This document shows, piece after piece, positions 21,743-48,600 of a stretch of 64,000 nt of DNA (the first letter of the stretch is position 1; the number at the start of each line of letters is the position of its first letter). A program made the position numbers and the translations under genes. This stretch comes from Antedon mediterranea (Eukaryota; Animalia; Echinodermata), in NCBI RefSeq assembly GCF_964355755.1, contig NC_092670.1, positions 37,498,388-37,562,387 on the forward strand, read 5' to 3'. Below the pieces are notes generated by a model, which was given only the letters and a program-made list of their open reading frames with translations, was not told where the DNA came from and ran no database searches.

Positions 21743-22578
21743 TCAAGATGATGGACTGTTGCTACATCTCGCACAGCCACAACTTGTTGGTACGCTCACT
21801 TTTGCACTACGCGCAACACCTCGTAACATTCTACCCGTGTGATCACGGCAGGTACGTAACATGACGTTGATTGATTCTTTACTACTTATATCACAGCATC
21901 GACATACCTGTAAATAAAAACCTGTATGTTAATGTTGAATATTTCCATAATATCATACAAATACATTCAGTCTATGCGCCCTCTATACCCACTTTAAGTT
22001 TAGTCTCGGTTTCAGATAAACCCAGTGGCCGTATTCACCAATAATCAAACTTACGTGAGATAAGTATTTCACTTAACTCAATAAATATAAATAAATACGT
22101 ATTTCTCGTAAATTGTATTCACTTCTTGTATAGAAGATGTTTGGCTTAAAACTGTGAGGGAGATCTGCTTTTATTTACCATCCAACTTACCTACTATTCT
22201 AGTGACGTCAACACGGTTCACAATTTCTTTCTACAACAACAAATGAAGAAGATAGCAAATGCTTACCCTAGTCAAGCCTCTTTTTATACTCCACATCTCG
22301 CTCGACGGACAGTTTCCTTCACATGCTTTTACTAGAACAGTTCCCTCGCATCGTATCTTCGAATTAACGCTTGTTGGGTTTGTGTAAAATCGCTTAACTT
22401 GAGTCGGGTACGATATTTCTGATAGTGCGCATTTAAAATATACGACGTCTGAGGTTCTCCCACCACCGCCGCCGCCGACACCCCGCCTTCCACCACCTCT
22501 AGTAGCACCGTCGCATATACAGGCGAACTTGTAGAGGACGAAAATTACCATCAATGAAATACTGTTCACAGTGGCCAT
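21743..22578 (-). CDS. Secreted cystine-knot hormone, bursicon-beta-like, 158 aa; exons 22578-22267, 21907-21743
   Basis: Hydrophobic signal peptide and Gly-rich linker, then 11 Cys in bursicon spacing: C..C(EGTV)..CEGNC..|VCRCC..LRTCRDHTGRML..PTSCGCARC. Phase-0 intron GTAAGC...TTTACAG. Confidence 0.85.
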
Positions 22579-22774: not shown

Positions 22775-23810
22775 GTGGCCTACAATATTGTTCGTTTAGT
22801 TTTAAATTTCATTTGTGGTAGAAAACAATTTGTTAATATTAATGGTGTTAAGTCAGAAATCGTAACCTCTGACACCGGTGTTCCTCAGGGTACTGTCAAT
22901 GCACCTAAATTATATTCCTTGTATACGGCCGATTACAGATCTTTAAATGATGAGCTTTGCCCCGTTGTTAAATTCGCTGATGACACTTGTACTATTGGTC
23001 TCATAGTTTCAAACAATGATGAACATTATCGTAGCGAAATACAAAGATTTGTTAAATTTTGTGACGATAATTATCTCCAAATAAATGCATCTAAAACAAA
23101 GGAGATGATCATTGATTTTAGGACTAAACATAAATTTAATTTTCAACCAATCACTATCAAAGGTAAAGAAATTGAAATTGTTGACCAGTACAAGTATCTA
23201 GGTATTGTTTTCAATGATAAACTGAGTTGGGGAGACCATATAGACTTCATCAGCAAAAAATTAAATCCCAGAATGTATTGTATGAGAACTTTATATAAAT
23301 TTAACTCCTGTGATTTGATGTTACTTTCGTTCTATAGTTCCGTTATATGTAGTGTTTGGACGTACTGCCTCTCCTGTTGGGCTGGTAATGTTACCGGAGG
23401 GAATAAAGGACGCCTTGAAACTTTCATCCGTCGGGCTGGTAAAATGATTGGTCTGGAACTGCCTTCCATTACCGATGTGCACCTAGAACACCTCCAAGAA
23501 AGATTTTGAACGCATTGAGTCGGATGCCTCTCATCCTCTCCACAAAGTGATCATAGACCAACTTAATCCAAGTGGTAGATTGAGGCTCCTCAGTGTGAAA
23601 ACAAATCGATATGCCAAATCCTTTATTCCCTCCGGTATCATCCAGTACAACAGAAAGTCAAGAAGATAATTTTATCTTCTATTTTTTGATGTTTTTTTAT
23701 GAATGGTTTTATGCTATATTTGTTTTTATTGTGTTTTCTTGTTATTATGACGAGCAATGAATTTCCTTTTTGAGGATCAATAAAAGTTATCTTATCTTAT
23801 CTTATCTTAT
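22775..23810 (+). mobile_element. 5'-truncated non-LTR retrotransposon (Rex1/Babar or L2/CR1-group-like), RT C-terminal half, frameshifted
   Basis: RT motifs GVPQG, KFADD, INASKTKEMIIDF, YKYLG. After a frameshift near 23500 it continues DASHPLH..SGR..KTNRYAKSFIP. Ends in AATAAA plus a (TTATC)n tail at 23787-23810. Confidence 0.9.
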
Positions 23811-30394: not shown

Positions 30395-33300
30395 TCAGGC
30401 TTTAATGGCAGGACTGACGTCAGCAAAGTAGGAGTGCTGGAGACCGTCTTCTGCAGACATCCGTAAAGACGGGTTGCAGATTAGAAGATGCTATCAGAAG
30501 TAACAAGTATTTCATTAATGAGGTCATTAAGGAGGAAGCAAACCACGTGACAAAAGATGTTATAGATTGAAGATTAATCATAATTAATACAAAGTTCTCT
30601 AAAACGTCAATGTTCCTCGAAAGGTTTTTTTTTCTTCTTTTCTTTCTTTTTTTAAAATTATCCATAAAAAACAAACAAAACAATAACAATATTGTAAATG
30701 AATTTAAATACGTGTGGCAATATATCAACATAGACTAAGAGGAAACAAAAAAAAAATATATATATATATATAAACACAACAGGCAAAGAAATGTATATTT
30801 AAGCATGCAATAAATAATCAGTGAATTAAGCCTTAAATAAAGTTCTATATAAATGGGTTCTAATTGGAATAGTTAAAACTTAATACCTAGTTACGTCATG
30901 TTAATTCATTCATTCATTGTGTTTTGCGGATTTTTGTACAGAACCAATAGGAAGGTCATAGTTCGCCACAAACCGAACCCTATTCTGTTTTGTGCTTTTG
31001 TTATTCTATTTAACAAGGTTAAAATATTGTCTAAATATATTTTTTGATAGAGACATCAACACCATATTTTACAATGTACTGGATAAAAATACAAAATGAG
31101 TGACGTATTATAATAATATAAAACTCTGTCTACATCAAACTTTATGTGACAACAAAATATCAGTACCATATTTTGGCATATCACTACCATATTTGGGCAC
31201 ATCACACTTTTTTTGTCAAACAAAATGTTTAATCAAATAAAATTAGAATATAAACAAATGCGTCAAGTAAAATGTGCAAATTTGGTTTAATTTAAGAAAT
31301 CCACAGCCTTTGGGCAAGTCGTAGTTCATCATTACTGGAGGAGTATTATGATGTTGCCGTAAAGGTCAATGGCGGAAAGTGCCAAACCCACAGAAATGTC
31401 AAACTATCAGCTTTAGGCCTATTGGTTACTAATAAGATAAAGAGGCGTAAGTTTTATTATAAAACTATTATAATAATCAACTTATGGTTACGTAGTCCGG
31501 GGTGGATGACGTGCCGTACGTGACATGTAACTAAGTAAAGTAGTCTAATACGCGATGACCTAATATAAAAATGGGATAATAAATGAAAGGTATATTGGTT
31601 TTAAAGGCTTAAAGTGAGCGGGATGCGATATTTCTTTTCGTACATAAGTTGAGGAGAGATTATTTAGAGGGTTAGGTTTAGTTATATTTAGGAAGTAGTT
31701 CGGCTATCTTTCACACAAGGGGTCCCCAACTTACGTACGAAAAACAATCGTGAGCGGGATACTATAATGCACCGTTTTGACATGTGTGTGCCCATGCTTT
31801 CAAAATGTGCGGTAATTTAAATCATAATAGTATACACGGAATTATACATCCGTTTACGGTGTTGCGGCAGTCTTTTCCGTTTGGTTCAGCCATGCATGCA
31901 GATGTACCGTGGACAACAACAAAATTGATGAATAGTAACCAATTAACGAAATTTGCATAGGGTAGGTCATAGGTCATAGCTATTGAAAAAGGAGCATATA
32001 GACGGTAAATTAAACTATCAATTTCGTTTGGAATCGAATCAAAATGCATCTTTCAAGACCAGGAGGTACAAATGTCTAGGGCAGCCTTGGGCACAGTCAT
32101 GCTTACTTCGCTGGGTAAAAAGTCAGTAACCTAACCACCAAAAGTTACCGACAATTTGACCATAAAAACTAACTGATCCGGGTAAAAAAATCTCAAATAA
32201 CCGTGATTTTATAAAATAGCAAGGTTAAAAAATGCATGTACTTAATGAGTTTAAAACTTTCCACCATGTCTCACTACTTAACAGTGGCTCAATGGTCCTT
32301 TGTATAATTAAGTACCTGGAAATATGTCTGTGTATTCATAAAAACAATGACGTCACTCAAGTAAAGTATTTGTTTACAAGTCCGGGAATTTTCCATCAGA
32401 CAAATTGGCAAAAGCTAGTATTTCGAGGATTTGTTTCAATTGTAATTCGTCCAACCATGCATGTCAGCATACAAATACATCGTACAGTATTTGAATCATT
32501 TCAATTGAAAGCTCCGTGGTAGTGAGGAAGTAGAAGAAAGCTAAAAGTGTCATCATTTGCAGACGTTTTGTTGACAGAATCAGCCCAACGACATACACGT
32601 ACTATACACACGAGTGTCAATATTGTTCATTGGTTAACCGGTGGTACAACAACAAGACATTTTACAGGTGTCAGTAGCGTACCTCCATTCATACGTAACT
32701 ATCAGAAACAATACTGCTAGAATAGTTCATCTTTGCGACGTCATAACAGAGCATCAGCATGTCATCCCACGGACTGTACATGGTGGTTACCAGGCTTAAT
32801 CCAGAGGAACAAGCAAGATTTTTTAACCAGCATTCGTTTTGTTGGCTTTATGCATTTGAGGTAACATTTAAAGTTAGAACACTTATTTAATTCTGGTCTT
32901 TTGTGGACTCATTCTATTTCTAAAACACTATTTTCTTCAGTTCTTTCAAAACGTTCTCCATATTTCGACAATCTCCACAACTTGATTCTACTTTTTGTTG
33001 GCTTTATGCATTTGAGGTAACATTTACAGTAAAACACTTCTTTAATTCTTGTCTTTTGTGGACTCATTCTATTTCTAAAACACTATTTTGTTCAGTTTCT
33101 TCCAAACGTTTTTCTTATTTCAACAATTTCCACAACTTGATTCTACTTCTATTTAAGGATGGTTTTTTAAGGTGTTGGTTGTGATGTGTTCTTTTGAGTG
33201 TTGCACTTTCTTTCGATCACGTTTATCAATGTTTCACACCGAGTCACCAAATCACGTCACAGTATTTAATTTGTCATCCACTTTTACTGCGGATAACCAT

Positions 33301-36300
33301 TGTGATTGTCAAGTTTCTTTATTTTTTTTTTCTTCAAAAGATGCTATTCTTTCTTTATTTCAAGATTGTTGTGCAAAGCATTTCACCAAATCTTGAAAAC
33401 TAACCATTTTGTAAATTTGAAAGCATTTTTTCACCTGAACTTGTCCAATCTTTGGAAACATCGGATTTACGTAGCATTAACTTACATGAAATTCTGTAAT
33501 TGATCATAAACTAAAAGTCAAAAGACAGTTTTTATTGAAACTTAACAAAAGTATAATTTTTTTTTTTTCTTGAGTAACGGAACGTTAGTTAGTTAGTAAG
33601 CATACAATGTTTTAAAAAGAACCTATTGTTTTCTCTTTGAGCAGTATACTGTAACCACTACTATTACTAATTAGTGAATTCATGGAAAAAACTCTATTTT
33701 CCACAGATTATAAGAATGACCTTTCACACTACTATGGTCAAGTTTCTTTCTTTTACAGTATAAACAAGTTTTAATTGTACAATATGGTTTAAACATGACC
33801 TTTTTCAAACTTTTTTTTTTATAAACATTTATTGATTTTTTTTAAAAATATTTCTAAAAAACCTTTGAAAATTCCATTTTTATTAAAGATTGTTTTACTT
33901 TTTCAATCTTATTAAGAACCAGCAAAAAAAAATTGACTACATAGTCACAGTATGACATAGTAAAGAAAATTGAACTGAAATGTCTTCCTCAATGTTGTTA
34001 CTAAGCAGTAATTCACTTTCTACTATCATTTCTCACATCACGTTGTTGAAGTCAAGCTGTTCTCATTTTTGTCACTTGTTTCATCGTACATATGAATGGC
34101 ATTCAACGACCCGTCAGGGTTTGCGATGAATCTTCTTTAAAACTATTTATGATTATAGGTACCTTGATGATTGGCATGACCTTTGAACTTCTCATCAATG
34201 GGATTAGCCTACTGGTGAATCGACGGTGTTCTCGTTACCTTCAAAGCTAACCTCTTCTCTGGAGCTGCAAGTACAGTATGTCTATTGAGTAGTACACTGA
34301 TTCCATGATGTAATGGGCCTAGAATGCCATCAAGGGAGCGTACCTGATTACTTTTAAAGCTTTACTGAATCCCAATGGATTTATAAATAGAATATTTACA
34401 AGGACCAAATGTTTATTACACAACTATATTACTACTTTTTTTGTTTAGTACAATGCATTTTGTCACTTCCATGCCATAAATACATCAATAAAATATTTAA
34501 TTCTACTACACAGATTAAACAAAAATGAACAACTTTTAATCTTGTTTATTTCATACACATCCAACAGCCAGTAACTTGCCAATTACAGGATGGATAAAAT
34601 AAAAGTGCTTATATCAAAGGAAATCTATTTGAGGCTTGGGGAGTGGTTTAGAAAGGGTTGGGAGTTGCAAACCCAGGCCCTATGTAAATATTGCAACTTG
34701 GGATTGGGAGGAAAGCTTATTAAACTACCAAGTTACAACTCCACTACATAAATTATTGATACAGTATTTGCTATAATAAAATAACAATGTATATCTTCCA
34801 CTTTTAGGCCTTGAAGGACTACATTGAACTGAAATGGAAAGGACTGCAGGTAGAGTCGGTATCCGATGATGAATTTGAAGTCATTGAAATTTTAAAAAGA
34901 GAAAATAAAAAGATAATAACAGAACTAACGATCGAAGAGGCAGAGAAGCTACGCCAGAAATGGATTCACGTTGGGTACGGAAAATCGGTCGGAGTCGGAG
35001 GTTAAAACTGAAATGCAATGGGAAATCAAATGGCTACTACTGCAGTAAATTGCAGTAAATCATTTGTTGTTGATATGATTTGTATAAAGTGTATATATGT
35101 ATTGTGTTCATATTTGTATCCGATGTCAAATAATAGTATGCCACTTTCAGGAAGAGAGCTGTGCATGGTATTGAATTCTGGAAGGTTGGGCCTAGGCATT
35201 GTTAAAGCCCAGCTACTAGGTCAATACACTATATAATTGATAGCAGATAAAGGCAACGAAATGGAACAGTCTTTGTGAAATCACCTGCATCATATATAAT
35301 TACATACACAACAGATTTGTATGGAAATCAATGAGATGTGTCTGTCATGGAAAAAAAAGATTAAAATCATTCAAAGATGGATTGCAACCACACAATACTT
35401 GAATGTTGATAACTCAAAATGCAGACATACATTTACAAAACAATTTTCTAAACCTACGTCATGTAAATAAATTCACGATAACAAGGTGTCTGTGCTTTTA
35501 ATAAATACACCTAGACAATTAAAGACCTCCCTAATTCAGTGTACAGTATGCAAAACAGTATAATACATGTGTAGAGAAAGGCTAAATTTAGTATGGTAGG
35601 AGGTTCTTATATGAATTTGGGGGTACAAGTCACAGACACTTTAGCAATATAGTAGTAATGTCTATATGTATTATGTAGAGCAGAATACAACAACTTTTGT
35701 ATTGTAGTGCAGTTAATATTAAATAGCTGTAGTGTACTGCTGTATTATTTTCTATAACAATATTATTTTAAGGCTTCCGTCAATCTTTACTTCTCTTTAA
35801 TAAGACATAATAATTGCACTGTGTAAAAGGAAAGCAGAATTCAATGCAACAACAAAAAATGTCGTCAAGTTAAAATCTTTTACAGTATTGGATTTTTGTT
35901 GTTGTGTAAATCATTCGGTTTTCATGATATACAAATAAATCATTAAAGGTGTTCACATAGGTAGCCTGGAGCTATACATAAGAATACACCTGTATAGGAT
36001 GTAACCTCCCACTCGTTATATCACGCAAAATAAATCATGTAAAGAAATTTCAATAAACTAAATTCTATGCAAAACTTGAAAAATGTGTTTTTCTTATTTT
36101 CAAATATCGTGAACGACGGAAATAAAACAAATTCAAAATGTCATGGTCACCGCATTCTCAACCTTTCTGATCTAAAACTCTGTGTAGACAGACAAACTAG
36201 TTTGACAAAAATAGTGTGATTTGCTTAAATATGGTAATGATAAGAAATTATCGCACATCCCATTTTTTGTCACAAAGTTTGATAGTGAAGACAGAGCTTT

Positions 36301-39300
36301 ACACAAACATGTATACAAATAACTACTTAAAATGGACCTGAAATGGATTTTCGATTTTTTTCATTATAGAATGATGTTTTGGGGGCTATTAGGTATTGCT
36401 AGAATGTATATTGTTACCAAATAAATTGGTCCTTTTGGGGAAAGCCCCATTTGAAAATCAAAAAAATTCGCGGGTGACGTCACTTTGCGAATATATTCCT
36501 ATCCCTCCAATGGACAATTTGCAGTTTTTTGGCTATAACTCTTGAAATCTATGGAGTATTTTCTAAAAAATGCTTGTGCATTTGCAGAAACGTATTTAGA
36601 ATTATTTTAGATAAAATTATTACCGTATAAACGGTTATTCATCGAGTAAATGACGATTTAAAATCTTAAAATCAACGTTTTTTTTCTGGAAATACCGAAG
36701 TTGGCCTGGCAACGTTGTCCGGGATACAGCTCCGTGCGCAATGATGCGTATCCATATTTTCCGTTTGTGTATTTTGTATATCGTTCGTAATTTATACTGC
36801 TAAAATGTGTTAGTTTCTTTAGTTTTTAGTTTAGCAGAATTAAATTAGTAATATGAGATGACAATTTATTTGTCACGAATCAGGCAGTTCGAAAACGAAT
36901 TTTATTCATATTTTACTTTAGCTTGACAATGAGCGCAGCAAGTTGTTGATATCGCTTTGGTCCTTGGATGCACATGAAACGGAGCCTCGCCGCATGATGT
37001 GGGTGGTGGATCGACTCCGCGCGCTAGATTGGGGGCCTAGGCCTAGTAAAGGTTTGGGAGGTAGGCCTTCTAAATTTGGGTTTTAGAACAAACAAAGTAC
37101 ATTTTAGGGACCTATATTTCAACAACATTAGATATTGAATAAATTAGTATTAGTGTCAACGCTTCGCGTATCTTTCCAGGCCGTCGATCATTCACTGACT
37201 ATCGGGCGGCATACACGCTCTCGATATCATCGTCGTGTATATGTGACGTCGTGAATATAGAGGCTTCCGACGGCCGTTGAAATAGAATATTGCAATGGCG
37301 TGAGTAATTTTCGCTAATTTACCATGGTATCTTAAAATTTCGTTTTTACTCAAAATACTATACATTTTGTTTTTATTTGTATGGGTTTGTGTTAATTTGA
37401 TACATTTAAATAACATGTGTGAATTTCTTGAAAATCGAAAGTCCATTTCAGGTCCATTTTAAAACCTTACCTGCAGTATTTATCCCCTAACAAAAAAGCC
37501 CTGAAATTCTATCTGAACAAGCGTTCTTAACTTTATTTCTGTCTGTTGTCTATTAACTTAAGCGAAGAAATAAAATGGGACACAAAAAAAAAACTTACTT
37601 GTAGAAGGTCACGACCTTTTGAGCTGATGTTGGGAACAATACTTGACAGTGACATTGACATTGGATATATTGGGAAGGGCTGAAATTATAACAAATATAT
37701 ATATAATGCATTTGTTTCAATGTGAAATGCACACTATTTTGTTATAGCACCTTTAAGTGCAGGTTACGTTTCTGAATGAATGCGCTGCTTGCACAGCATT
37801 TATTGTCAAATATATAAAAATATTTAAAACTTTGTACACAGACAACGCTCTTAACAAAGTATAAAAAACACAATAATCTGGTCACAGGGCTTTTCATTAT
37901 GTTTAAGTTTTATGTTGCAGGTATTATTAAATGCACTACACTAAGGTACAACAATAGTGCATAATCTTGCTCATTAGACTGTCTACACTATCAAATTGTA
38001 TGTGACAAAAAAATGTGAGGTGCTCACATATCACCACCACATTTGGGCACTAGTTTGATAGTGTAGACAGAGCGTTATACCTTGTAATCTGGATGTTTAG
38101 AGACGCCTGGCCATGTCTCTTCTGTAGGTGTTCCCAGAAGTTTAAATATACGTTTCAGTTGATCCTCAACATCATTCCCCGGAAATAGTGGTCGTCCCGC
38201 ATTACCCATCTCTATAATGATTAATTAATGATTAAACCAATAATAACGCACAGTTAATGGCAAAAACAATTATACAATATATTACAAATTTAAAATAGTA
38301 GGGGATTCTGATGGTAATTTATATTTAAAAAAAATAAAAATGTTCATTTGAATATTAAAATTTAAAAGAATGTAGAAAGAAGGCACTGTTCATATTTGAA
38401 ATAACTATTACTGTACAGTACTTTATTCATTTTACTGTGAATGTACAGTTTTTTCTGTAATTTCTAACATACTGTACTATAAATATATTGTGTTAATGTA
38501 TGATGTTTGTTATGAATAATATTCCCTCATTTTATGAATATTTGAGGAACTCCATTCATAGTTTTAAGAAGAGAATGCATGACAGTCGTAATAGTCTGAT
38601 TACAACCATAGTTAATGTATTTCCACAATCCAAACTGCATCTGTGTTGGTGCATAGAGATATTATAGTTCACTATAATATCTCTATGGTTGGTGCAAATT
38701 GATATTTTATGATAATTTAGGTTGTTTTTGAGGAAGATGCTATTGTTAATTTCCTTGTGACATTTTCTCTTTTTGTTTTGTACTATCCAAAATAAAGGAA
38801 ATGAATGAATGAGTATACACTATACTGTAGCTATAAGGCTCTGTCTACGCTATCAAACTAGTTTGACAAAAAAAGTGTGATGGGCCCAAATATGGTAGTT
38901 ATATACCCAAATATAGTAGTGCTATGACATCATCCATGACATGTCCATATATGGGCACATCACACTTTTTTGCCACATAACGTTTGATAGTGCAGACAGA
39001 GCTAAAATAGAATCCATCGAAACTGTGCAATTATCTTTTAAAAATTATACACATTTTTACAACCTGCGAATATACATCCAGCGGACCACATATCAATTGA
39101 TGTTGTGTAAACTTTAGCACCAAAAAGAACATCAGGAGGACGGTACCAGAGGGTGACAACTTCAGCTGAGTAGCACCTGACAGGTATACCAAACGCACGA
39201 GCAAGACCAAAATCTGCAAGCTTTAGGTCTCCATTCTGAAAAAAAAATTATTTGGACCACCTGTACTGTTACAGCACTCTAGTATGTATTAAACACTGTA

Positions 39301-41960
39301 ACTGGCTTGAAAGAAATATCTGAAAATTAGGTATCCTCAAAACAATATTTTTAACTTTCTTAAAATTAATTTAATTTATACAGTATTATTAGAAAAGGCA
39401 AAACAGAATGGGTTTTGTACCATCATTAATTGATTTTGTGTTTTGCTGATGGGTGCATTGTGGATTCCAAACATCCTTCTTAGTATGCCTTCCTTTCCTC
39501 CTATCAGCACATCACTCAAGCTATTTTATATTTAATTTTGTTTTTATTTATTTTTCTGCTGTATATATTGTATTCTCTGGAGGAAATAAATATAACAAAA
39601 AAATAAATAAATAAAAACAATAGAAATGATATTTAAACATTTTTGTAATACTAATATATTTACTGTATTAATAAGTAGATTCTGTGGTTTGAGGTCACGA
39701 TGCAAGACGTTGTTGCTATGGCAAAATGCTAAACCCCGTAGCAACTGATACATGAATGCTTTGACAACATCCTGGTCTATTTCTCCATTGCATGCATCAA
39801 AGTACTTCTTCAAGTCTTGATCGCAATATTCAAACACTAAAGTCAACCGCTTCTCGCTGTGTAGTACATCGTGAAGGCGAACAATATTCTTGTGTTTTAG
39901 TTCCTTTAACAGGCAGATTTCTCTTAATGCTGAGCTTGGTACACCCTAATGATAAAACACAGTAAAGCTCTGTCTACACTCAAACTTGGAAACAAAATTT
40001 GATGTGCCTATAATACACACAAATATGGTAGTGGTATGACATCATCATGTCCATATAATATGGACATGATGATGTCATACCACTACCATATTTGGGTGTA
40101 TCACTGCACTACCATATTTGTCAAACTAGTTTGATAGTGTAGACAGACCTTTATGTGACAAAAAAATGTGATGTGCCCATATATGGACATGATGATGTCA
40201 TACCACTACCATATTTGGCTATATTTGGACACGCCACACTTTTTTGGTAAAACTAGTTTGATAGTTAAGACAAAGCTTTATTTATTATTTTTTTAATTGG
40301 CACCGTTGACCACTTGGTCTAATGTAAAGATTTCTATCTTGTCTTAGGCACTACGCTGTGCTGATATAGACACCAGAATGGTCAAGTACCAATAGTCTAT
40401 ACACAAAATGTTAGTTACATGCATGGACCACACCGATAGGCTTTTACAAGCACAGATGAATCTACCGATTGCAGTTTCCCCATCTCAATAATAGCCGGCC
40501 GGCCATACAGTACATACCTCATCATCGTCATCAAGACGTACTCTCTTTAGAGCTACGATTTCCTGCGTATCTTTGTTCTTTGCTTTAAATACTGTTCCAT
40601 AAGTACCTATTCAAATCAAATCAAATAATATTAGTATAAGTTTGGGCGCTAGTTCCGTTTCGCACCTGTCATTTATTTCGACTCAAAATGTGTTAAGAAA
40701 CTTTATCGTGAGTACCACACCTTAGAATTAGGCCTCAAAAATACTTTTACGAAGGAGATCACACAAAAAGTAAAAAATAAATGCTTTAAAGTGATGAATT
40801 TACAGACGTGTTTCTCGCACATCGGTTCCATACGCCATGTTCAATGTTGTAGTTTTTATGGAGCGCCAAAAGAGCAATCATAATAGAGGGCTAAAAACTC
40901 AATATAATGCGTATATTTAATGCATTTATTGGTGAAAATTACGTTCAATTTTAATATATTTTGTCAATGTCAATGCAAAAAAAAATGTTACTGTTGATAC
41001 TGTACATGGTTTTCGCAGTTTTCGTTAACTTTTAAGAATGAAAATCGACAAATTCATCATCATATTACATGTACTGTAGTTTTTATTTATACCTCAATGA
41101 TCTAAATAATATTCCTCTTAGTCTTATTAGGCCTAGGCCTAGGCTAGGTAGTGATTACTCCATGGTAGTGATGCTGATTTAGGCCTAGGGTTTTGTTGCA
41201 TTGACATTGACAAAATACAGTATAGTAAAATTGAACGTAATTTTCACCAATAAATGCATTAAATATACGCATTATATTGAGTTTTTAGCCCTCTATTATG
41301 ATTGCTCCTTTGGCGCTCCATAGAAACAACAACATTGAACATGGCGTATGCGAAATTGATGAACCGATGTGCGAGAAACACGTCTGTAAATTCATCAATT
41401 TAAAGCATTTATTTTTTACTTTTTGTGTGATCTCCTTCGTAAAAGTATTTTTGAGGCCTAATTCTAAGGTGTGGTACTCACGATAAAGTTTCTTAACACA
41501 TTTTGAGTCGAAATAAATGACAGGTGCGAAACGGAACTAGCGCCTAAGTTTGCACACTTTCACAACAAAGAAACAGAATTTTGGTCAAAAAAATTGTAAA
41601 TTAAAAAAAATTAATTTCGGTTAGAAAATTGTTTTAAAAAAATGTTAAGTATTAATATCTAGGCCTAAGCCTTATGTATGTTTGGAAGCATACACAATTC
41701 CCATTTTAAAAAATCTCTAGGCCTAGCTTATATATGGTGTGGTTTGTTTTCCGTCCTGGTCGCGGACCGCTTTAATTGATCGCTGTCGCTGACCCTGCCT
41801 TTGTTAGGCCTAGAGTTTAGATTTACTTATATAGGCCTACCGATAGGATTTATTCATTCGTGAATGATCGGTAAGTAAGCTCATTTTCAAACTTAACTTA
41901 ATAGATATTCAATTTATACATACCTTCCCCAATTTTCTCAAGTTTTTCATATTTTTGCAT
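30395..41960 (-). CDS. CDK5: Cyclin-dependent kinase 5, 295 aa; exons 41960-41924, 40606-40518, 39945-39664, 39235-39064, 38211-38081, 37679-37599, 30490-30395
   Basis: [29 protein letters not shown] helix (diagnostic of CDK5), [40 protein letters not shown], last exon [24 protein letters not shown]. All phases join into 888 nt. Confidence 0.97.
31122..31220. mobile_element. MITE family A copy, truncated
   Basis: Left TIR plus core. Confidence 0.65.
32759..35005 (+). CDS. Putative nested gene in CDK5 intron 6; exons 32759-32860, 34808-35005; 99-aa protein ending in GVGG, possibly ubiquitin-like fold
   Basis: ATG with A at -3 and an upstream in-frame TAA; phase-0 donor GAG|GTAACA; strong acceptor atcttccacttttag|GCC in matching phase 0. 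Both segments look coding against the AT-rich background. No known homolog recognised. Confidence 0.55.
32837..33147. repeat. Tandem duplication, 2 x ~155 bp
   Basis: TTTTGTTGGCTTTATGCATTTGAGGTAAC...TTGATTCTACT occurs twice. Confidence 0.9.
36176..36298. mobile_element. MITE family A copy, degenerate
   Basis: Degenerate TIRs plus core. Confidence 0.65.
36331..37458. mobile_element. 1128-bp non-autonomous TIR transposon with TTAA TSD (Kolobok-like)
   Basis: 28-bp TIR AATGGACCTGAAATGGA(T/C)TTTCGATTTT with one mismatch, TTAA on both sides, CpG-rich interior, no transposase ORF. Confidence 0.85.
37976..38074. mobile_element. MITE family A copy next to the CDK5 exon 5 donor
   Basis: CTGTCTACACTATCAAA...TTTGATAGTGTAGACAGAGC. 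Confidence 0.75.
38837..39003. mobile_element. MITE family A copy
   Basis: TIRs plus core. Confidence 0.8.
39966..40277. mobile_element. MITE family A, composite or tandem double copy
   Basis: One left TIR, two right TIRs and an internal palindrome at ~40020-40095. Confidence 0.75.
40645..41544. mobile_element. 900-bp foldback element with ~335-bp TIRs and 8-bp TSD (Merlin- or MULE-like)
   Basis: 40645-~40978 is the reverse complement of ~41196-41544; termini GGCGCTAG...CTAGCGCC; TAAGTTTG duplicated at 40637-40644 and 41545-41552. Confidence 0.92.
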
Positions 41961-45600: not shown

Positions 45601-48600
45601 ACGCATACATTTTTGATTTCGATAAGATTAAGACGTCATTCATCGAAGATACTATAATGTTTCTTTTTAATCTGAAAAGTACACCCCTATCGAAAAATAG
45701 ACAATCCCGGTAATTAGCCGACCGTCGGCTACGTAGTCGATCGTTTGTGCAGCGCACAACACGTGATAGTTTGGGTAGACTTCATCGTCCATGTGTCGTG
45801 TAACGTCTGTCTCTCTGTGCAGTCTACCTCTGCTATCTCCATCTTTTTGAAATAACAAAGAGACGCCTGGTACAACGAAACAAGTTGACGAAAAATGGAG
45901 CTTGAAGTAAACAATGTGATAACAAACAAAATAAATGCTTGGAGATCGACAAATGGACCTTTTAGTTGGACTTTATGCTTTCGCCAAAATGGTTATTTAA
46001 TTATCTATTTTATCATATGTCATCACCAAAATGGCTAAAGTAGCCGTTTTATTTTTCGCCAATCTAGAAACGTTTTCGCCCATGGCGACTTGGCGATCGG
46101 CCAGTGCAAGCCTAGCACTGGACCTACAGTAGGGTTTATAGTCCTTATCTGAGAAGACTTGATGCCATTCATCCAATAACTTGATGCTCACTGGCCCATT
46201 AGTTAGACAGCTGTAAGATGTGAATAGATAATTGTACTCCTGTTGATTTTTTGAAATGGTTTTTTTGATTTTATTTTTCAGGTATTGTGAGCTACATGAA
46301 GGAGCAAGCAGATCCTAGCTGGGCACCACCTCCAGAGGCAGTCATCACGTTGACAGACGCAACATTTGATGAGGTCGTCAACAAAGAAGAGTTGATTCTT
46401 GTTGAATTCTATGCACCTTGGTATGTTCTGCTAAAGCTCTGTCAAACAGATGGGACAAAAAAATATGATGTGCCCATATATGAACATGATGATATCACTA
46501 CCATATTTGGGCATATCACTACTATGTTTGAGCACATCACACTAGTTTGATAGTGTAGACAGCTTAATAAGACGTTTCTCAAATAATATTGTGCGCTGTG
46601 AACCTATTCAACCTTATTAAAACAAGGTCGAAAACTAAAATAGGAAGTATTCAGTTTCACAAATAAAATACTGTAGCAACCTAGCGCGCTGTTGTTGATG
46701 GGAAGAGGCTATTGGCACGAACGGTTAACAGCATATAATAATTTATTTATTTTCTATCTGCATAGGTGAATTTTTTTTAATGATCATGCACCTAGTTCGC
46801 TGTGCTGATAAGACAACAGAATTAAGGATTATGTGTCACCTTGCCAATAGAAAACAAAGCATTAGATGCATAGTTGACGTTGTCGATAGGGTCAACTGTG
46901 CTAATAGCGATGATACTAATTATTCTGTATCATTGATAGAAAATACTATTGCATTGATTGAAAATACTATTGCATTGATTGAAAATACTATTGCATTGAT
47001 TGAAAATACTATTGCATTGATTGAAAATACTATTGCATTGATTGAAAATACTATTGCATTGATTGAAAATACTATTGCATGGTCGACCAAACCTATAGAA
47101 ACTTTAAATTACACACTAATCACAAAACAAGTCAATAATAATTATATTCTTTTACTTCAGGTGTGGTCACTGCAAAAAGCTAGCCCCAGAATATGAAGAT
47201 GCAGCACAGCAATTGAAAAAGTTTGATCCCCCAATTCCACTAGCTAAAGTGGATGCAACAGAAGCAACAGAAAGCGCTGGTAGATTTGGAGTTACTGGCT
47301 ACCCAACGCTTAAAATCTTCAGGAATGGAAAAGATTATGAATATAATGGACCACGAGATGGCCCAGGTAAGTTACTGTTATCAATATGTCGCCCTCTACT
47401 TTTATTAGACACTGGTCCAGCATACAATGTCTATGTCTTTATCTTATTTCTTTATACTAATTTTAATATTATTATGATTGTAGTACACTGAAAGTATCTA
47501 TTTTTATTTCATCGTTTTTGTTTTTATTTATTATTTTAAGTAGTAAATTGTATTAGTTTAAATGTATGTGTATTATTTCTGGTGTCTTTCTCGAGACAAG
47601 AAACTTGATTTCTTCTAGAGAAGACCCTAAATGATGGCTTATTACTATGTTTTCATTTATGTACACACATATATTATACTGTATAATGCCATTGTTGAAC
47701 AAATAAATGTTTTTTGAACTTTTGAACTTGATGTACAGACTCTAGTCAATCACAACACACCTGGATCATTGCCGTTTTAAACATGCTGTTTAGTATTGGT
47801 TCTATTGTATGATCATAACAATTCTATTCAATTGTACTATTGCATGACAGATTTTTGTGAAAAAAAAACTGATAATGAATGTTTCAAAATTCGTTGAAAA
47901 CCAGTCCTATTTAACTTGCCAATCAATCTTCCAACCCATAGAAATATTCTCTCTATTCAACTCATAAACATTCATTATTGTACACTGATAAAACAATATT
48001 TCATTCTTCAGGAATAATCGATTATATGCAGAAACAATCAGGCGATAGTTCAAAGAATAAAGCAACATTGAAGGACATGAAGAAGTTCTTAGAACATCAG
48101 GATGATGTCAGCATTGTTGGCTTTTTTAGTAGTGAAGAAGATGATCTATACAAGATGTACCTTGACAAAGGTATGTAGTATAGCAATGTTAGTCACAATG
48201 AGGCCCAGACTTTATACCCACACATACGATGATTAAAGCTCTGTCTACTCTATCAAACTAGTGATATCCCCACATATGGTAAAAATATGACATCATCATG
48301 TCCATATTTAGGGCACATCACATTTTTTGTCACATAAAATTTGATAGTGTAGACAAAAGTTTAAAACACAAGAAAGAAGATTATATATATATGTATGTAT
48401 GCCGTTCTGTGTCTTTATTAATAACAATAAGCCTCAAAGGAGGGGTTTATAAGCACGATAAATTATAAAATAGTTTATCCATCCTGTAATTGGCGTATTT
48501 GTGCTCACTGTTGGATGCGTATAAAATAAAAAATATTAATAATAATAATAATATTATGAAAAATTCTAAATTAAAACTTAGTTTATAAGCATGATTTATA

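What the first reader, a model, noticed from the sequence alone, without database searches (positions are those of the whole stretch)
32759..35005. Candidate new ubiquitin-like protein gene nested antisense in the long last intron of CDK5
Seen: CDK5 intron 6 (30491-37598) is 7.1 kb, while its other introns are under 1.4 kb. Inside it, on the opposite strand, 32759-32860 (Kozak ATG after an in-frame stop, phase-0 donor) splices in frame to 34808-35005 (strong acceptor). The product is [103 protein letters not shown] site (TGACGTCA, ~32348) and a reverse CCAAT (~32629) lie upstream, and AATAAA (~35466, ~35499) lies downstream. Established: conjugatable ubiquitin-like modifiers and ThiS/MoaD/URM1 sulfur carriers are ~70-100-aa beta-grasp proteins ending in Gly-Gly. 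Inference from an eyeball alignment only: [14 protein letters not shown] resembles the ubiquitin helix IENVKAKIQDKEG, and [16 protein letters not shown] resembles RTLSDYNIQKESTLHL. The GG is already exposed, so no processing would be needed. I do not recognise it as ubiquitin, SUMO, NEDD8, URM1, UFM1, ATG8/12 or MOCS2A, so it may be a lineage-specific modifier.
Basis: partly seen in the sequence, partly recalled or inferred. Interest (0 to 1): 0.82.

Follow-up and report, generated by a model that had tools for sequence, protein, structure and literature searches.

The report
Hidden orphan gene inside CDK5 intron
A feather star carries a spliced, likely protein-coding gene of 99 codons with no detectable relatives inside an intron of CDK5 on the opposite strand, but its likeness to ubiquitin is likely only a chance Gly-Gly ending.

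Summary
The gene is real; the ubiquitin reading is not supported. The window is from the feather star Antedon mediterranea. Both exons translate as stated. One RNA-like run joins 32860 to 34808 at GT..AG (contig depth 769 against 14-40 in the intron), and a DNA-like run does not. The 99-codon ORF opens at the first ATG and scores like true exons (0 of 71 intronic frames reach it; 2 of 5000 simulated transcripts give such a first-ATG ORF). No relative was found in any collection searched, although this species' annotated proteins are held. Ubiquitin-likeness: no Pfam or PDB hit; -0.4 bits on a ubiquitin profile, reached by 269 of 1000 shuffles (a weak test for remote folds); Gly, not hydrophobic residues, at the last-strand core positions; helical single-sequence models of both exons. 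The terminal GG ends a Gly-rich tail encoded by a doubled hexamer. The full-length protein was not folded, so a divergent beta-grasp remains possible (about 0.2), a conjugatable modifier about 0.07. Verdict: a lineage-restricted small gene apparently absent from the protein annotation.

The parts
32519..32758 (+). Probable 5' UTR of the nested gene (no ATG in 240 nt); start approximate
   Evidence: X1 contig starts at 32519 at depth 769, upstream contig 32162-32444 at depth 5.3; ATG list; first ATG at or beyond 240 nt in 14 of 5000 simulated transcripts
32759..32860 (+). Coding exon 1, codons 1-34, phase-0 donor
   Evidence: its one variant (32803) is synonymous; codon score weak, -0.07
32861..34807 (+). 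Single 1947-nt GT-AG intron of the nested gene
   Evidence: joint in X1, absent in X5; intronic X1 contigs at depth 14-40
32837..33148 (+). Tandem duplication of about 155 nt that copies the end of exon 1 and its donor (second donor at 33016|33017, not seen used)
   Evidence: reading to the second donor meets a stop after 43 codons
34808..35005 (+). Coding part of exon 2, codons 35-99 and stop; Glu/Lys-rich; Gly-rich tail ending GG, encoded partly by a doubled GTCGGA
   Evidence: codon score 0.33; no variant listed in X1 or X5
35006..35975 (+). Probable 3' UTR; likely polyadenylation signal AATAAA at 35934; end approximate
   Evidence: X1 depth 1300-4100 up to the bin 35912-36040, 0 from 36041; motif list
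32348..32355 (.). CRE-type palindrome about 170 nt upstream of the first covered base; function untested
30491..37598 (-). Host intron: CDK5 intron 6 (last), 7108 nt
   Evidence: an X1 contig covers 30123-30490 and then leaves the stretch exactly at the acceptor
36327..37462 (.). 1136-nt element with 32-nt terminal inverted repeats; adds to the intron's length; not part of the nested gene
   Evidence: very high depth in all four runs

Best explanation
This is a spliced two-exon gene nested antisense in the last intron of feather-star CDK5 that likely encodes a lineage-restricted 99-residue soluble protein, predicted to be largely helical and likely acting as a non-covalent binding partner rather than a conjugated ubiquitin-like modifier. 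Shown: the gene structure, the splice in one run, the coding-like codon use, and the lack of detectable relatives. Inferred: translation; a cytosolic or nuclear location (no hydrophobic stretch, best 19-residue mean hydropathy 0.22; 11.6 kDa, pI 5.6); binding through amphipathic helices such as residues 55-66 and 76-88. The terminal GG is read as the end of a flexible Gly-rich tail (5 of the last 10 residues) produced by a short hexamer duplication.
For: Splice joint at depth 769 against 14-40 for unspliced intron in X1, flat 20-42 in X5 apart from one repeat bin and one bin at the duplication. Codon log-odds 0.19 per codon, inside the range of 14 known coding stretches of the window (0.01-0.44); 0 of 71 intronic stop-free frames reach it (maximum 0.09). 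ORF of 99 codons or more from the first ATG in 2 of 5000 simulated transcripts, anywhere in 61 of 5000. Variants: 0 nonsynonymous and 1 synonymous in 300 coding nt against 34 in 3157 non-coding nt, P about 0.08, suggestive only. No relatives. Not ubiquitin-like by sequence. Gly at positions -9 and -7 from the last Gly, where MoaD has V/F, ThiS I/L, and 70 of 71 fetched ubiquitins L or I at -9. Single-sequence models: exon 1 helix-helix, pLDDT 74; exon 2 three helices, pLDDT 52. Physical properties.
Against: The fold models are of separate exons without alignments; such models lean towards helices, the exon 2 model is low confidence, and no control was folded the same way. The ubiquitin profile has little power for remote folds: MoaD, a true beta-grasp, scores only 0.9 bits on it. 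By eye the pattern of residues 35-90 (helix, strand, turn, strand, helix) also fits PB1/RA-type beta-grasp domains (recalled, untested). Exon 1 alone scores weakly as coding (-0.07). Expression rests on one run whose RNA status is the tool's guess. No peptide evidence. No binding partner is identified; the binding role is the default for a small protein with no catalytic motif, not a finding.
Confidence: 0.55

Rival explanations
1. The protein is a highly divergent beta-grasp domain (PB1-, RA- or type II UBL-like) that binds partners non-covalently; the GG is incidental.
For: Size fits. The connector before the last strand is variable in beta-grasp folds and can hold structured elements (PMC1949818, section 6 read). 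The periodicity of residues 35-90 resembles PB1/RA domains by eye (recalled). Exon 2 folded alone lacks the first two strands, so its helical model is a poor test. A UBL hidden in an annotated lncRNA has a precedent, pTINCR (PMC9652315, passages).
Against: No Pfam, NCBIfam, PHROGs or PDB beta-grasp hit for either exon. Exon 1, which should form the first hairpin, models as two helices at pLDDT 74. The last 10 residues cannot supply a core strand.
Confidence: 0.13
2. One reading: a new conjugatable ubiquitin-like modifier or sulfur carrier whose exposed GG is activated by an E1-type enzyme.
For: 99 residues with a free terminal GG; from composition alone a GG end has probability about 0.005. 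E1 enzymes tolerate different tails: UBA6 takes both ubiquitin and FAT10 (PMC12355090, passages).
Against: No similarity to 71 fetched ubiquitins (269 of 1000 shuffles score as high; 313 of 1000 with GG kept) or to MoaD (325 of 500 local, 400 of 500 global). E1 binding needs a surface patch as well as the tail (PMC12355090). The GG ends a Gly-rich hexamer repeat, and the ORF drew attention because of its GG, so 0.005 is not a fair prior. Known modifiers are deeply conserved (own knowledge); this has no detectable relative.
Confidence: 0.07
3. The transcript is a long non-coding RNA with an incidental ORF, acting if at all by antisense interference with CDK5.
For: No protein relatives and no entry among this species' held proteins. 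The polymorphism test is not significant (P about 0.08) and exon 1 scores weakly. Nested genes can interfere with host transcription (PMC3192792, start of abstract only).
Against: First-ATG ORF length (2 of 5000), ATG-free leader (14 of 5000), a frame-preserving splice, and a codon score above all 71 intronic frames.
Confidence: 0.12
4. Exon 2 is a remnant or offshoot of a known helical interaction module, the best candidate being the BAG6-binding TUGS domain at the C-terminus of UBL4A (not its ubiquitin domain).
For: Best PDB match, E 0.24, 35 ungapped columns with 10 identities; positions matching V115 and L119 are V and L; three helices in both (PMC4392246, passages).
Against: E 0.24 for the top hit of 177635 sequences is chance level. 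No Pfam family of this kind was listed. The essential His106-Phe107 linker falls on Glu-Ser if the alignment is extended without gaps, and Tyr123 on Asn; the best-matching third helix is dispensable for BAG6 binding.
Confidence: 0.05

Closest known systems
Nested intronic genes on the strand opposite their host (e.g. Drosophila 2mit in timeless2, PMC3786989, start of abstract seen)
   Same: Whole gene inside one intron, opposite strand, own exons; that abstract puts intronic genes at about 6% of Drosophila genes.
   Different: Here the host is CDK5 and the product has no known relative; no paper holding CDK5, nested, intron and crinoid was found.
Type I ubiquitin-like modifiers and ThiS/MoaD/URM1 sulfur carriers
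   Same: About 100 residues with a free C-terminal Gly-Gly.
   Different: No detectable sequence similarity, Gly at the last-strand core positions, helical exon models, no conservation outside the lineage so far.
pTINCR, a UBL microprotein in a transcript annotated as lncRNA (PMC9652315)
   Same: Small ORF missed by annotation in a spliced transcript.
   Different: pTINCR is described as evolutionarily conserved and models as a UBL; neither is shown here.
UBL4A C-terminal TUGS domain (PDB 4x86; PMC4392246)
   Same: Weak 35-residue match; three helices.
   Different: Chance-level score; His-Phe linker and Tyr of the BAG6 interface are absent.

Membership tests
Type I ubiquitin-like modifier | Free C-terminal Gly(-Gly) | tested here: met
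Type I ubiquitin-like modifier | Single domain of about 70-100 residues | tested here: met
   99 codons
Type I ubiquitin-like modifier | Detectable sequence similarity to ubiquitin | tested here: not met
   full-length protein -0.4 bits on a profile of 71 ubiquitins, 269 of 1000 shuffles as high; exons separately without such hits in Pfam and PDB
Type I ubiquitin-like modifier | Five-stranded beta-grasp fold (PMC1949818) | tested here: inconclusive
Type I ubiquitin-like modifier / sulfur carrier | Hydrophobic last strand in register with the GG (positions -9 and -7 from the last Gly) | tested here: not met
   Gly/Gly here; V/F in MoaD, I/L in ThiS, L or I at -9 in 70 of 71 ubiquitins; the ubiquitin -7 residue was fixed by the search pattern. 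Only three families were compared.
Type I ubiquitin-like modifier | E1 activation and conjugation to targets | not testable with these tools
   needs biochemistry
Type I ubiquitin-like modifier | Terminal GG conserved in orthologues | tested here: inconclusive
   no orthologue found; other crinoid genomes could not be searched as DNA
ThiS/MoaD/URM1 sulfur carriers | Similarity to ThiS/MoaD | tested here: not met
   pairwise score to E. coli MoaD below the shuffle mean; no Pfam or NCBIfam hit for either exon
UBL4A TUGS domain | His106-Phe107 linker and Val115/Leu119/Tyr123 core | tested here: not met
   2 of 5 positions kept, on a chance-level alignment extended without gaps
Nested intronic gene | All exons within one host intron, opposite strand, independently spliced | tested here: met
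Lineage-restricted (orphan) protein-coding gene | Coding signal and no homologue outside the lineage | tested here: met
   (searched by exon 2 only; unannotated genes of other echinoderms would be missed)

The most novel reading that the evidence does not exclude
A crinoid-specific ubiquitin-like modifier: a beta-grasp protein diverged beyond sequence recognition, made with its GG already exposed, conjugated by a borrowed or dedicated E1, and hidden inside CDK5.
Probability: 0.07. Interest if true: 0.8.

Novelty: new member of a known kind. Interest (0 to 1): 0.3.

Why it matters
It is a spliced, apparently well-expressed small gene that the held protein set of an annotated crinoid genome lacks, so it is a concrete annotation gap and a candidate crinoid innovation in a regeneration model. 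Its position opposite CDK5 makes host interference testable. Only if it proves to be a beta-grasp with a working GG would it be a new modifier, which would be a major result; the evidence here does not favour that.

Full report
Setting. The last exon of the neighbouring PDIA4 gene is 100% identical to a protein named for Antedon mediterranea and 86% to one of Anneissia japonica, with all others at 69% or less. The window is therefore from this feather star, whose NCBI proteins are in the searched collection. No whole genome was held. The long last intron holds the nested gene (about 3.5 kb), a 1136-nt element with 32-nt terminal inverted repeats and short high-copy repeats.

The observation. 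Both exons translate as written and join in frame to 99 codons ending GG-stop. Five runs hold the stretch, none on record as RNA. Run X1 behaves as RNA. One contig covers 32519-32858 at depth 769 and jumps to 34806, read as GT..AG with the cut moved by 2, which is the predicted junction 32860|34808. It has 30 letters on the short side, one under the tool's bridging rule, and a second contig starts at 34806 at depth 1301. Intronic contigs are at depth 14-40. Run X5 shows no joint and is flat at about 20-42, apart from a repeat bin and a bin at the duplication. In X1 a CDK5 contig also leaves the genome exactly at the acceptor 30490 with 891 letters lying elsewhere; exons 1-6 total 792 nt, which fits a spliced CDK5 mRNA (inference). 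Contig depth cannot rank genes or give the strand; the plus strand follows from the GT..AG. This is one run of one study.

X1 cover starts at 32519, so the reverse CCAAT at 32629 is probably in the 5' UTR. Cover continues past AATAAA 35466 and 35500 to about 35975; the 35466 site is lost by a 3-nt deletion in both runs, and AATAAA 35934 is the likelier signal. The CRE palindrome at 32348 is one of 8 in the window against 0.51 expected, several far from any known start, so it is weak evidence. A tandem duplication of about 155 nt copies the donor to 33016; it is not seen used and would give a 43-codon product.

Is it coding? In the 1510-nt transcript model the ORF opens at the first ATG, 241 nt in. 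Among 5000 simulated transcripts with the same dinucleotide transitions, 61 had an ORF of 99 codons or more, 2 had it from the first ATG, and 14 had so long an ATG-free leader. Codon log-odds, trained on 1364 codons from 14 coding stretches of the window, give 0.19 for the ORF (exon 1 -0.07, exon 2 0.33). Left-out true stretches score 0.01-0.44; 0 of 71 intronic frames of 40 codons or more reach it (mean -0.21, maximum 0.09; these frames come from the sequence used as background, which favours the contrast). Of 39 variant rows, I dropped 4 at 33027-33050 as likely mis-laid copies of the duplication; 34 are non-coding (3157 nt), 1 is synonymous, 0 are nonsynonymous against 2.5 expected, P about 0.08. 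Coding is likely but no peptide was seen.

Relatives. Exon 2 finds none among 5.8 billion proteins at 35-114 or 115-2000 residues, none that is credible among 1.84 billion representatives (2 repetitive hits), and none in metagenome, viral, prokaryote or phage DNA. A 99-residue annotated product would have been found, so the species' annotation seems to lack it (inference; a lncRNA model could not be checked). Unannotated orthologues in other crinoids are not excluded.

Is it ubiquitin-like? Pfam lists only MutS_IV (E 0.058) and NuDC (E 0.072) for exon 2 and nothing for exon 1. PDB sequences give 5 and 3 chance-level hits, none a ubiquitin-fold domain; the top one is the helical C-terminal TUGS part of UBL4A at E 0.24, whose essential His-Phe linker and Tyr are not matched (PMC4392246, passages). 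I took 95 loci matching a ubiquitin end pattern, recovered 88 genes with 71 distinct sequences, and scored the full-length protein on their profile: -0.4 bits, reached by 269 of 1000 shuffles and 313 of 1000 shuffles that keep the GG. Pairwise scores to one ubiquitin (184 and 171 of 500) and to E. coli MoaD (325 and 400 of 500) are also at chance.

How it most likely works. A small, acidic, soluble protein without signal peptide or membrane segment and without a catalytic motif, with amphipathic helices, most likely binds a partner non-covalently (0.55; the role is inferred, no partner is known). Rivals: divergent non-conjugated beta-grasp (0.13), lncRNA with an incidental ORF (0.12), conjugatable modifier (0.07), TUGS-derived (0.05); the rest is unassigned.

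Novelty. Antisense nested genes are a known arrangement (PMC3786989 and PMC3192792, starts of abstracts only), and UBL microproteins hidden in lncRNAs exist (PMC9652315, passages). Searches of the held library found no description of this gene (listings only, supplements not examined, and crinoid transcriptome supplements may list it). It is a new member of a known kind, a nested orphan gene, with interest 0.3; the modifier case has probability 0.07 and would deserve 0.8.

Noticed in passing
window 41960 (CDK5 ATG, minus) and 42635 (PDIA4 first codon, plus): CDK5 and PDIA4 are head to head with under 700 nt between start codons, suggesting a shared bidirectional promoter. Both genes lie on human 7q36.1 (recalled, not checked).
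   Followed up: no
window 36327-37462: 1136-nt element with 32-nt terminal inverted repeats (97% complementary), very high depth in all four runs, no long ORF; likely a non-autonomous DNA transposon.
   Followed up: partly
window about 31100-31250, 36190-36300, 37975-38070, 38840-39000, 39960-40280: A very high-copy short repeat family with internal 21-nt units fills CDK5 and PDIA4 introns and dominates read depth.
   Followed up: no
window 32837-33148: Tandem duplication of about 155 nt that creates a second, identical splice donor for the nested gene; not seen used in X1.
   Followed up: partly
window 22234-22578, minus strand: Open frame starting with Met, a hydrophobic N-terminus, a Gly-rich linker and several Cys; looks like an exon of a secreted cystine-knot-type protein (recalled pattern); no Pfam hit at E 0.01.
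   Followed up: partly
window 22775-23506, plus strand: Reverse transcriptase fragment (Pfam RVT_1, E 3.9e-11), directly beside the ORF above.
   Followed up: partly
window 35018-35236, plus strand: A 72-codon ATG ORF begins 12 nt after the nested gene's stop in its probable 3' UTR; no Pfam hit; three X5 variants fall in it. Probably incidental.
   Followed up: partly
window 46931-47080: A 21-nt tandem repeat of 7 copies in a PDIA4 intron produces a spurious 155-codon open frame.
   Followed up: yes
whole window: TGACGTCA occurs 8 times against 0.51 expected from dinucleotide shuffles, including twice at the end of CDK5.
   Followed up: partly
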